Part shown: positions 48,001-51,000 of the stretch, piece by piece
Numbering within the stretch: position 1 is the stretch's first letter
How the letters are laid out: each line of letters begins with the position of its first letter
Source: Escherichia coli
GTDB lineage: Bacteria > Pseudomonadota > Gammaproteobacteria > Enterobacterales > Enterobacteriaceae
Reading direction: 5' to 3' (one strand)
NCBI RefSeq assembly: GCF_051903065.1
Contig: NZ_CP178438.1
Length of the DNA stretch: 64,000 bases
Made by a program: the position numbers

Positions 48001-51000
48001 ATTGCGTTAACGGTACAGCGCTCGCTTCCCGATCTGGCATTGCCAGTGCAAAGTTGCCCCCCATGCAGATCAATGCTCGAGCCTGCCCTGTACATATTGC
48101 TTGCATGCTGGCAATTGCAGCATGTCCAGGTGCTTGAGGTGGTGTGAAGCCATAGCGCTCACCCAGGCGAGCCAGAAACTCTGCAGACGGTTTCTCGGTG
48201 ATACCGACGGTTCGGTCGCCCTGTACATTAGAGTGGCCACGTAGTGGGCAGATACCCGCACCAGGCTTGCCAATGTTACCTTTCATCAACAGCAGATTGA
48301 CCAGTTGCTGTACATTCTGGGTACCATGTTCGTGCTGAGTGATCCCCATTCCGTAACAGATAATGGTTCGTTCGGCAGCGGCATATGCATCAGCCAGTTC
48401 GGCGATTTGTGTCTGACTTAGTCCAGAAATACGTTCGATATCTTTCCACTCGGAATTGAGCACGTCACGGCGTAGCTCGTCAAAGCCGACGGTATGCGTT
48501 TGAATAAATTCGTCATCCAGCAATGAGGGCCGACCTGCGGCGCTTGCAGCATCATCGCGCTCAATTAACAGGCGCATCATCCCCTTGAGCAACGCCATAT
48601 CACCACCAATGCGCACGTTATAGTAGGCACTGGCCAACTGAGTCTCAGAGTTCGTCAGCATTTCAAACGGGTTTTGCGGTGCGGTAAATCGCTCCAGGCC
48701 ACGTTCCTGTAGAGGATTGATGGCGATCATTTTCGCTCCCCGTTTCACTAAAGCGCGCAACGAAGTCAGCATGCGAGGGTGGTTTGTACCAGGGTTATGC
48801 CCAATGCAAATGACTAAATCGCACTTCTCAAAGTCTTCCAGCAACACGGTCCCTTTACCTACACCGATACTCGCTGCCAAACCCACGCTTGTCGGTTCAT
48901 GGCACATGTTGGAGCAGTCGGGAAAGTTATTGCTCCCGTATTCACGGGCAAAAAGCTGATAAAGAAAGGCAGCCTCATTGGAAGTGCGGCCCGAAGTATA
49001 GAATTCAACCTGATTGGGATCACTATAGCTTTGAAGGCGTGCGCCAATTTCATCGAAAGCTTGTTGCCAGCTTAATGGCTTGTAACAGTCGCTGACGGCA
49101 TCATATTTCAAAGGCTGAGTGAGTCGCCCCGCAGCCTCAAGCTCGTGGTCTCCCCAGGTAAGTAATGATTGAACCGTATTCTCAGCAAAGAAAGAGGCGT
49201 TTACCTGCTTATCCGTGACTTCCCAGGCGATTGCTTTTGCGCCGTTTTCACAAATGTCGAATGACGCACTGTGCTTAGGATCTGGCCATGCACAACCCGG
49301 ACAGTCAAAGCCCTCTGGCTTATTCATGTCAAACATGGCAATAACATCCTGGCGTATATCCATCTGCTTACGTACTGCATTCGCTACGGATTTAACAGCA
49401 CCCCAACCACCGGCAGCTCCCTGGTAGGATTCAATTTTTTTCTTCATCTACTTATCCTGTGTGGAAATGAATTATTAGGATTTGTAATAGCGATGATGCA
49501 CAGTACATACAAAGGGATTATCGCCAACATGGATATATAAGAGTAGGGGACTACTCTCTTTCTATTTTTAATCTATTATCGTTAAACAATAGATTAAATA
49601 CGATAAGGTAAGCATCATCTCTCATAGTGTTTAAATTAACATATTTTTTAATATAAAAAATAAGACTCTGGCTTCAATTGTGCGCGGATTTTCTTACAGG
49701 TGTAGGATAATAGCCTTCACAAAATAATTATCCGCGCAATTTTCGTGAATGGAGCGCATAGACCAATGTCAAAATCACAATTATTCATAGATAAAAGTGA
49801 CACCAATGACTGACTGGACGGTTCCGGCTGAAACCTTGTTTCCTGTTTGTCCATAGGTTGCGCTTAAACCCAGAGGTACTTTGCTTTTATTTACTGTCCC
49901 CAGGGAGACATTTTCTCCCGTAGCCAGTATTTTTCCATTACGCATCAGAGAGACACCCACTCCCGATGCTTTTGTTGCATCTGGTGCTGTGTTAGCAAAC
50001 ACTTGTCTAGCACTGTCAGTGGTAGCACCCGAAAGATAAAATGAGAGCTTTTGTTCACTTGAGCAATATACGCCAAGGGGGATTTCTGCGCTTCCAGGAA
50101 AGTCCGGGAGATTCACGGTGACATTACGACTATCAACAGTGCAGCCGCCTGTTGGCATAACAACACTGTTATTTGAAATAATATTCCACGTAAAATTACG
50201 CGGATTTCCGCTTCCTAACGTGGCAATTTTATACATATGAATACGGGCAATAACTTCCCCGGCTTTTATGACAACTCCACCGGCCGCCCCGACTGGGGTA
50301 ATATAGAGTTTTAACGGTAATGGCATCGGTGTCTTATCACCAATATCCAATACGTTTGTATTTGTCGTCAACGGGAAGGGGTAGGTCACATTATTCCAGT
50401 ACAGCGATCCTTTATATGACTGTAGAGAGCCTGCGAAAGCTGAGCCTTGTACCAGGTTTATATGATCAGTGTCGTACCAGCCGCCGTAATCATTCCAGCA
50501 ACTTATATGCTGAGACAAGTCTACAACCAGATTCTGGCCCGGCTGTATTACAGGGTCGAGATTAACATAAACAGAGGTTGTACCAGCTCCAATACTTGAC
50601 CCGCCATCGACATTACAACTGAAGGCAAAAACTTTGCCTGCCATTAATAGAAGATAAATACCGAACAGGACCTTTATACTGATTGTTTTACCCATGATAT
50701 ATCCTAAGGTTAAAAAATTGATTTAAAAAGAAGGCTAAGAAAATCGAATCGACGTTATTGCCAGGTGTAGATCACATTGATTAGCGCCTCGATCGTTCCC
50801 TGGCTTGCATTTCCATTCACCGTGATAGCTCTTGCCTTAAGTGGAAACTGTGCATTACGAGTGATCTCATCAACAATAACCGTTTTGCTATCGCCATTTT
50901 TTAACGTCGCATCCTGGTCATCCCTCAGCTCTATCTGAATATTTTCGGCAGTACCTTCATTTTTGTAATAACCCGTATTGTCAGTTGAACCTGTCACGAT

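What the first reader, a model, noticed from the sequence alone, without database searches (positions are those of the whole stretch)
49681..49739. Second EvgA box upstream of ydeP, nested in a 9-bp inverted repeat
TTCTTACAGGTGTAGGAT lies about 245 bp upstream of the ydeP start, sharing a 15-nt core with the safA box. It sits between tgcgcggat and atccgcgca separated by 41 bp, which could form a stem enclosing the box or mark another dimeric factor site.
Basis: seen in the sequence. Interest (0 to 1): 0.3.

Follow-up and report, generated by a model that had tools for sequence, protein, structure and literature searches.

The report
Known EvgA box, incidental flanking repeat
This is the known acid-response (EvgA) control site in front of the E. 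coli ydeP gene; the 9-base inverted repeat around it is real, but I found no evidence that it does anything on its own, so the finding is ordinary.

Summary
The sequence facts hold. The window is E. coli. The site lies in the 333-bp gap between ydeQ (last F9 fimbrial gene) and ydeP, both on the minus strand. The EvgA-type box TTCTTACAGGTGTAGGAT is at 49691-49708. The arms TGCGCGGAT (49681-49689) and ATCCGCGCA (49730-49738) are perfectly complementary, with 40 nt between them, not 41. A GC-rich repeat like this in 33%-GC DNA is rare in shuffles (0.06%).

The box is the known primary EvgA site of the ydeP promoter, centred near -74.5 if the 178-nt leader used in a published study marks the transcript start. 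The repeat shows no sign of a function of its own:
- The gene-proximal arm lies in a 49-nt block (-81 to -33) that ydeP shares collinearly with the safA promoter. safA has no distal partner.
- Four other EvgA boxes in K-12 lack such flanks.
- The distal arm is polymorphic: at least 133 of about 5,300 genomes carry arm-breaking alleles, uncompensated in the three carriers I examined.
- There are no terminator features on the gene strand, no Rfam match, no inverted allele and no repeat family.

The promoter was found only in E. coli, so cross-species conservation cannot be tested. One modest lead: a weak second EvgA-like site 22 bp downstream of the box in both promoters. Low interest.

The parts
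49691..49708 (-). Primary EvgA box of the ydeP promoter. It reads ATCCTACACCTGTAAGAA in the gene direction. Its centre is about -74.5 from the inferred start.
   Evidence: Pattern match with 1 mismatch. PWM score 24, far above any other site in the region. Half-sites are conserved in 12 E. coli lineages while the central dinucleotide varies. ydeP is EvgA-activated according to PMC7174508 and PMC11210196.
49681..49689 (.). Gene-proximal arm of the inverted repeat (TGCGCGGAT on the + strand), at -56 to -64.
   Evidence: Invariant in the 12 aligned lineages, but it sits in a 48-nt invariant block. It has a counterpart, CTCCGCTCA, at the same offset in the safA promoter.
49730..49738 (.). Distal arm of the inverted repeat (ATCCGCGCA on the + strand), at -105 to -113.
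   Evidence: Two arm-breaking alleles exist: a change at 49736 in 86 genomes and a change at 49730 in 47 genomes. The three carriers aligned have an unchanged proximal arm.
49658..49706 (-). 49-nt promoter block (-81 to -33) homologous to the safA promoter at 46222-46270.
   Evidence: Ungapped local alignment, 38/49 identical. Score 48 against a maximum of 34 in 300 shuffles.
49669..49686 (-). Candidate weak second EvgA site, CGCGCACAATTGAAGCCA, centred at -52.5, 22 bp from the primary box. It overlaps the proximal arm.
   Evidence: Second-best PWM hit in the ydeP region (score 1.0, about the top 0.4% of window 18-mers). The equivalent safA position is also second-best there (score -3.4). This is an inference, not a shown binding site.
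49633..49641 (-). Extended -10 element TGtTAATTT of the ydeP promoter. The inferred transcript start is A at 49625.
   Evidence: Read from the sequence. The 5' leader used in PMC11210196 runs from -178 relative to the ATG, which is 49625. safA has TGtTATATT at the same 49-nt distance from its box.
47318..49447 (-). ydeP coding sequence, cut short in this window (709 codons instead of 759) by an IS1.
49781..50695 (-). ydeQ, the last gene of the F9 fimbrial operon. Its stop codon lies 43 nt upstream of the distal arm.
   Evidence: Annotation. Pfam FimH_man-bind match. PMC3966885 places ydeP immediately 3' of the f9 operon.
46255..46272 (-). EvgA box of the safA-ydeO promoter, used for comparison.

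Best explanation
The locus is the known EvgA-activated promoter of ydeP.

Phosphorylated EvgA binds the 18-bp palindromic box centred near -74.5 and activates a promoter with an extended -10 element (TGtTAATTT) and no good -35 element.

The gene-proximal arm of the 9-bp repeat is not half of a hairpin. It belongs to a roughly 49-nt stretch (-81 to -33) that the ydeP and safA promoters share, base for base and with identical spacing to their -10 elements. That stretch most likely serves as the contact zone between bound EvgA and RNA polymerase. It may hold a weak second EvgA dimer at -52.5, by analogy with the related regulator BvgA.

The distal arm is ordinary, polymorphic upstream DNA. Its complementarity to the proximal arm has no independent function.

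Shown here: the sequence anatomy, the homology with safA, the polymorphism counts, and the absence of terminator features, RNA-family matches, inverted alleles and repeat-family membership.

Inferred: the transcript start, the second EvgA site, and the lack of function of the repeat.
For: - Gene context and identity.
- Box match and PWM score.
- The ydeP leader of 178 nt puts both arms upstream of the transcript.
- ydeP and safA share a 49-nt ungapped homology that includes the proximal arm. Both have the same 49-nt spacing from box to TG-extended -10.
- safA has no distal arm.
- The emrK/evgA, frc and two yfdX boxes lack such flanks.
- The distal arm has 2 variable positions out of 9, against 13 of 100 in the surrounding upstream region. 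The aligned carriers show no compensating change.
- Arm-breaking alleles occur in 86 and 47 genomes.
- Natural IS1, IS2 and deletion events separate or clip the distal arm.
- No minus-strand terminator.
- The RNA fold in its 131-nt context is not unusual, z = -1.17.
- No Rfam match.
- The second-best EvgA PWM hit lies exactly 22 bp downstream of the primary box in both promoters.
Against: - A perfect 9-bp GC-rich repeat in 33%-GC DNA is rare by chance (0.06% of shuffles).
- By my reading of the sequence, complementarity extends about 3 more base pairs past a 2-nt bulge. This was not tested statistically.
- At least 85% of genomes keep the distal arm intact.
- One of the two arm variants (C to T, read on the gene strand) still allows a G-U pair in minus-strand RNA.
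- No expression data exist for any variant.
- About 20 divergent genomes that could have tested constraint were never retrieved.
- The transcript start is inferred from a probe design and from the sequence, not from a mapping experiment that I could read.
Confidence: 0.6

Rival explanations
1. The repeat acts as an RNA stem-loop on transcripts that read through from the F9 fimbrial operon (ydeQ stops 43 nt upstream). It would stabilise the 3' end or insulate the ydeP promoter from upstream transcription.
For: - The 68-nt segment folds at -20.7 kcal/mol with the 9-bp stem, z = -4.5.
- It lies where an operon-end structure is expected, and no other minus-strand terminator was found in the gap.
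- The C-to-T arm variant keeps a G-U pair on this strand only.
Against: - The enclosed loop is 40 nt, and no U-tract follows the stem on the minus strand (CAAUUGAAGCC). The nearest T-run starts 17-19 nt downstream of the stem.
- In its 131-nt context the fold is not unusual, z = -1.17.
- The z-score of the isolated segment is high by construction, because the segment was chosen for its repeat.
- There are no compensatory changes, and the T-to-A variant breaks a pair.
- The proximal arm is explained by the homology with safA.
Confidence: 0.15
2. The two arms, each in the extended form AATTG(TG)CGCGGAT, are a pair of sites for a second DNA-binding protein. That protein would bridge them and enclose the EvgA box in a small loop, modulating EvgA access. 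It could be a repressor or a nucleoid protein; H-NS is known to bind this promoter.
For: - The repeat is statistically unusual.
- The arms sit on both sides of the box.
- H-NS binds the ydeP promoter region (PMC2984483).
- The arm flanks resemble a LacI-type operator: 49676-49689 matches 13 of 14 bases of the left part of lacO1.
Against: - No known E. coli factor with this motif was identified. The lacO1 likeness is post hoc, and the right operator half is poor.
- The literature describes ydeP as simply EvgA-regulated (PMC7174508).
- safA shares only the proximal copy.
- The distal arm is polymorphic, and in some strains it is removed by an IS element or clipped by a deletion.
Confidence: 0.12
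3. The 9-bp repeats are the ends of a small invertible or cruciform-forming DNA element, like the 9-bp repeats of the fim switch.
For: Only the formal resemblance: 9-bp inverted repeats next to a fimbrial operon.
Against: - No genome among 3,867 matches carries the inverted junction.
- The segment is only 40 bp, and the box inside it is itself nearly palindromic, so inversion would change little.
- The 9-mer occurs only at the two arms in the 64-kb window.
- In metagenomes the paired arms turned up only at this E. coli locus plus unrelated chance matches, so this is not a repeat family.
Confidence: 0.02

Closest known systems
EvgA box of EvgA-activated promoters in E. coli (ydeP, safA-ydeO, emrKY, yfdX, frc). 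To my recollection it was defined by Masuda & Church 2003 and Itou et al. 2009; neither paper is held in the library.
   Same: An 18-bp palindrome matching TTCYTACA-NN-TGTARGAA, upstream of a gene that papers in the library call directly EvgA-regulated. Half-sites are conserved and the central dinucleotide is free.
   Different: Nothing differs for the box itself. The flanking 9-bp repeat is not part of the described motif and is absent from the other boxes checked.
BvgA-dependent promoters of Bordetella (fha, ptx): a strong primary inverted-repeat site plus weak secondary dimer sites at about 22-bp steps towards the -35 region. This is from my knowledge of the BvgA literature; EvgA is the closest E. 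coli relative of BvgA.
   Same: A primary palindromic site far upstream (-74.5). The next-best EvgA-like 18-mer lies exactly 22 bp closer to the promoter in both ydeP and safA. The sequence between box and core promoter is conserved.
   Different: The secondary-site scores are weak (1.0 and -3.4, against 24 for the primary). No binding data are available. Other EvgA promoters do not share the block.
Intrinsic (Rho-independent) terminator at an operon end
   Same: A GC-rich stem located 43 nt after the stop codon of the last gene of the F9 operon.
   Different: The loop is 40 nt, and no U-tract follows the stem on the gene strand. The consensus scan finds none on that strand.
lac operator O1 (AATTGTGAGCGGATAACAATT)
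   Same: 49676-49689 (AATTGTGCGCGGAT) matches 13 of 14 bases of the left part. The distal element matches 15 of 21.
   Different: The right half is poor in both copies. A 15/21 match occurs three times in the window by chance. There is no biological link to LacI. I treat this as a coincidence.

Membership tests
EvgA box / EvgA-activated promoter | 18-bp inverted repeat matching TTCYTACA-NN-TGTARGAA | tested here: met
   One mismatch at 49691-49708. PWM score 24.
EvgA box / EvgA-activated promoter | Lies upstream of a gene whose transcription depends on EvgA | tested here: met
   The downstream gene is ydeP by annotation. EvgA dependence is stated in PMC7174508, PMC11210196 and PMC4283999.
EvgA box / EvgA-activated promoter | Lies upstream of the core promoter at an activating distance | tested here: inconclusive
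   The centre is at -74.5 if the start is at 49625 (the leader runs from -178 in PMC11210196, and an extended -10 sits at 49641-49633). safA has the same geometry. I could not read any start-site mapping.
EvgA box / EvgA-activated promoter | Bound by EvgA in vitro or in vivo | not testable with these tools
   The original footprint and gel-shift papers are not in the library.
Intrinsic terminator | GC-rich stem with a short loop (about 3-8 nt) | tested here: not met
   There are 40 nt between the arms.
Intrinsic terminator | U-tract directly after the stem on the transcribed strand | tested here: not met
   The minus-strand tail is CAAUUGAAGCC. Only the + strand has AAUUUU after the stem.
Conserved structured RNA | Compensatory base changes that keep the stem | tested here: not met
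   Two arm variants, neither compensated in the carriers aligned. One is compatible with a G-U pair. Diversity is too low for a strong test.
Conserved structured RNA | Match to a described RNA family | tested here: not met
   No Rfam match at E up to 1 in 49350-49900.
Invertible DNA switch (fim-like) | Both orientations present among genomes | tested here: not met
   No record carries the inverted junction.
Dispersed palindromic repeat family (REP/MITE-like) | Many copies of the same unit elsewhere | tested here: not met
   The 9-mer occurs only at the two arms in the window. Of the 80 metagenome loci examined (120 or more matched), only 3 are this E. coli locus; the rest are unrelated GC-rich matches.
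BvgA-type multi-dimer promoter | Secondary low-affinity activator sites phased about 22 bp from the primary site towards -35 | tested here: inconclusive
   The second-best PWM site is at exactly +22 bp in both ydeP and safA, but the scores are weak and the two promoters are homologous, so they are not independent.

The most novel reading that the evidence does not exclude
The conserved block between the EvgA box and the core promoter, which includes the proximal arm, is a second low-affinity EvgA dimer site at -52.5. It is shared only by the neighbouring ydeP and safA promoters. That would make these two a BvgA-like, cooperatively activated subclass of EvgA promoters, which could explain the very fast and steep acid induction of ydeP. 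The distal arm might add a third contact or a small loop. My evidence does not exclude this reading.
Probability: 0.2. Interest if true: 0.3.

Novelty: already known. Interest (0 to 1): 0.1.

Why it matters
It matters little. The EvgA box of ydeP is textbook regulon knowledge, and the flanking repeat shows no sign of a function of its own.

The useful by-products are small:
- The ydeP and safA promoters are collinear copies of one roughly 95-nt module (-81 to +1).
- Both carry a possible second EvgA site 22 bp downstream of the primary box.

People who use ydeP promoter reporters to read out EvgS activity could test both points easily.

Tried and rejected
1. Cross-species conservation.
The best hit was Providencia at 73%.
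- A protein search showed that the next YdeP relatives after E. coli and Shigella are in Edwardsiella (84-87%). There the gene sits in a moa-ybhL-ydeP-nrdBA context with a 141-bp upstream gap and no EvgA box.
- The cluster members I read were all E. coli.
- So the promoter appears to be specific to E. coli, and no cross-species test is possible.

2. The 19-20 E. coli records with only 80-90% identity across this region. I tried evenly spaced sampling of the hit ranking and E-value cut-offs, plus divergent-looking YdeP proteins. I never retrieved them. All 12 DNA searches are used.

3. Inversion of the 40-bp segment: none found.

4. Repeat family or mobile element: rejected.

5. Terminator: rejected for the gene strand.

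6. General EvgA flank requirement: rejected, because the emrK, frc and yfdX boxes lack it.

7. Motif look-alikes compared by eye (RcsAB box, GAD box, NarL heptamer, CRP, Cra, marbox, H-NS nucleation motif, lacO1). Only lacO1 was striking (13/14), and I treat it as a post-hoc coincidence.

8. Original EvgA-box papers: not in the library.

9. Two folds used wrong locus coordinates and are disregarded.

Full report
**What is there**

The window is Escherichia coli. The 333 bp at 49448-49780 are 100% identical to strain Combat11I9, and a match is present in 5,327 of 5,426 complete E. coli genomes. The RefSeq annotation of that strain puts the region between ydeQ and ydeP, with safA and ydeO further downstream, all on the minus strand. 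ydeQ is the last gene of the F9 fimbrial operon and ydeP is an acid-resistance oxidoreductase.

- The box TTCTTACAGGTGTAGGAT is at 49691-49708, with one mismatch to TTCYTACANNTGTARGAA.
- The only other match in the window is the safA box at 46255-46272.
- The arms TGCGCGGAT (49681-49689) and ATCCGCGCA (49730-49738) are 9/9 complementary with 40 nt between them, not 41.
- The box is off-centre within the repeat by 10 bp.

**Is it more than chance?**

In dinucleotide shuffles of the 333-bp gap, a perfect repeat of 9 bp or more with a 3-60 nt gap appears in 11.5% of trials. Three or more, as observed, appear in 0.04%. A GC-rich one appears in 0.06%. So the repeat is unusual for this 33%-GC region. 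But the window as a whole has 41 such repeats against 12.9 expected, and this one was selected after the fact.

**Promoter anatomy**

[quoted passage not shown] Position -178 is A at 49625 on the minus strand. An extended -10 element, TGtTAATTT, sits at 49641-49633, which is the right distance for that start.

On this reading the box is centred at -74.5, the proximal arm is at -56 to -64, and the distal arm is at -105 to -113. Neither arm is in ydeP mRNA. The start site is inferred; I could not read a mapping experiment.

**The proximal arm belongs to a shared promoter module**

Read in the gene direction, the sequence after the box is similar in ydeP and safA:

- ydeP: CCTACACCTGTAAGAAAATCCGCGCACAATTGAAGCCAGAGTCTTATTT
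- safA: CCTACAGCTGTAAGAAACTCCGCTCAGTACTGAAGCACCAGTCCTATTT

This is 38/49 identical without gaps, with a score of 48 against a maximum of 34 in 300 shuffles. Both promoters then have a TG-extended -10 (TGtTAATTT and TGtTATATT) exactly 49 nt from the box. The two are therefore collinear from about -81 to the start.

The proximal arm ATCCGCGCA corresponds to CTCCGCTCA in safA. safA has no upstream complement to it.

**The flank is not a general EvgA feature**

In K-12 the boxes at emrK/evgA, frc and yfdX (two boxes) have unrelated flanks and no such repeat.

**Conservation within E. coli**

I aligned twelve lineages spanning 92.6-100% identity.

- The proximal arm is invariant, but it sits in a 48-nt invariant block.
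- The distal arm varies at two of its nine positions: C to T in strains N3 and 14EC020, and T to A in ETEC4067 (changes given as read on the gene strand). None of these three strains has a compensating change in the proximal arm.
- The surrounding upstream 100 columns vary at 13 positions, so the distal arm is not better conserved than its neighbours.

Counts of the 30-mer at 49711-49740 across the genome collection:

| Allele | Genomes |
|---|---|
| Window allele | 3,867 |
| Spacer variant, arm intact | 640 |
| C-to-T arm variant | 86 |
| T-to-A arm variant | 47 |
| Other haplotypes, not identified | about 670 |

Natural rearrangements also touch the repeat:

- Strain 536 has a 1.8-kb F9 deletion whose junction lies at the outer end of the distal arm.
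- STO_Bone1B has an IS1 about 10 bp upstream of the box, between it and the position of the distal arm.
- AHS8C65RI has an IS2 at about 49761.

About 20 genomes are only 80-90% identical over the 68-nt repeat region, with none in the 90-95% band. They would be the best test of constraint, but I could not retrieve them.

**Outside E. coli**

After E. coli and Shigella, the closest YdeP proteins are in Edwardsiella (84-87%). There the gene lies in a different neighbourhood with a short upstream region and no EvgA box. The promoter appears specific to E. coli, so conservation across species cannot be assessed.

**Structure and other readings**

- On the gene strand there is no terminator-like site.
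- The stem encloses 40 nt and is followed by CAAUUGAAGCC, not a U-tract.
- The 131-nt context folds no better than shuffles, z = -1.17. The isolated 68-mer folds well only because it was chosen for its repeat.
- There is no Rfam match.
- No genome carries the segment inverted.
- The 9-mer occurs only at the two arms in the window.
- A metagenome scan for the paired arms matched 120 or more stretches. Of the 80 loci examined, three were E. coli ydeP promoters and the rest were unrelated GC-rich matches.

**A modest lead**

I built a position weight matrix from six EvgA boxes. It scores the primary boxes at 24-25. In both ydeP and safA the second-best site in the region lies exactly 22 bp downstream, centred at -52.5, with scores of 1.0 and -3.4. 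It overlaps the proximal arm.

From my knowledge of BvgA, the closest relative of EvgA, promoters there carry a strong primary site plus weak secondary dimer sites at about 22-bp steps towards the -35 region. This is an inference. The two promoters are homologous, so they do not count as independent evidence.

**Conclusion**

The box is the known EvgA site of ydeP. Papers in the library describe ydeP as directly and simply EvgA-regulated and say that an EvgA site is present in all directly regulated genes (PMC7174508, PMC4283999). H-NS also binds this promoter (PMC2984483).

The flanking repeat is real and compositionally odd. Its proximal half is explained by the shared promoter module. Its distal half is polymorphic and dispensable in some natural strains. 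No test supports a hairpin, terminator, switch or repeat-family role. I rate the best explanation at 0.6, an RNA stem on F9 read-through transcripts at 0.15, a second-factor site pair at 0.12, and an invertible or cruciform element at 0.02.

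Noticed in passing
window 46546-47331: A complete IS1 (768 bp, 46555-47322; InsA and InsB ORFs) is inserted in the 3' part of ydeP. 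It is flanked by a 9-bp target duplication, CCATGCGGC. YdeP is cut at 709 of 759 residues, so the gene served by this promoter is probably defective in this strain.
   Followed up: yes
window 63959-63981: A second IS1 left end (GGTGATGCTGCCAACTTACTGAT) lies at the very end of the window.
   Followed up: no
window 49625-49706 and 46189-46270: The ydeP and safA promoters are collinear copies of one module. They share a 49-nt ungapped homology after the box, similar TG-extended -10 elements, and an identical 49-nt box-to-TG spacing. This suggests a promoter duplication or a shared constraint.
   Followed up: partly
window 49676-49689 and 49723-49743: AATTGTGCGCGGAT matches 13 of 14 bases of the left part of the lac operator O1, the best such match in the window. 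The distal element matches 15 of 21. This is probably a coincidence.
   Followed up: partly
window 49540-49598 (ydeP 5' leader): The 178-nt leader holds a perfect 11-bp AT-rich inverted repeat (49567-49577 and 49588-49598) and a conserved 7-bp hairpin (49540-49557). Some lineages (for example ST131, N3 and ERP001) carry a 5-nt insertion (ATACC or ATACT) next to the first of these.
   Followed up: no
L099 (strain 536), L100 (AHS8C65RI), L224 (STO_Bone1B): Natural rearrangements occur just upstream of the box. Strain 536 has a 1.8-kb F9 deletion whose junction is at the distal arm. AHS8C65RI has an IS2 at about 49761. STO_Bone1B has an IS1 about 10 bp upstream of the box.
   Followed up: partly
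L094-L097 (Edwardsiella): After E. coli and Shigella, the nearest YdeP proteins are in Edwardsiella (84-87%), in a moa-ybhL-ydeP-nrdBA context without an EvgA box. So ydeP and its EvgA promoter have a patchy distribution that is specific to E. coli.
   Followed up: partly
window 49707 and 49699-49700; L002 (MG1655): K-12 MG1655 carries AGCCTACA instead of ATCCTACA in the distal half-site of the box. The central dinucleotide of the box is polymorphic among strains (CC, CT or TC).
   Followed up: no
E. coli genome collection, region equivalent to window 49676-49743: About 20 RefSeq E. coli records are only 80-90% identical over the repeat region, with none between 90 and 95%. This looks like a distinct divergent allele or lineage. 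I could not retrieve them.
   Followed up: partly
L104-L183 (metagenome contigs): Among unrelated GC-rich matches to TGCGCGGAT-N(30-50)-ATCCGCGCA, 20 of 80 have a 45-nt spacer. This hints at some conserved element in other bacteria, unrelated to this window.
   Followed up: no
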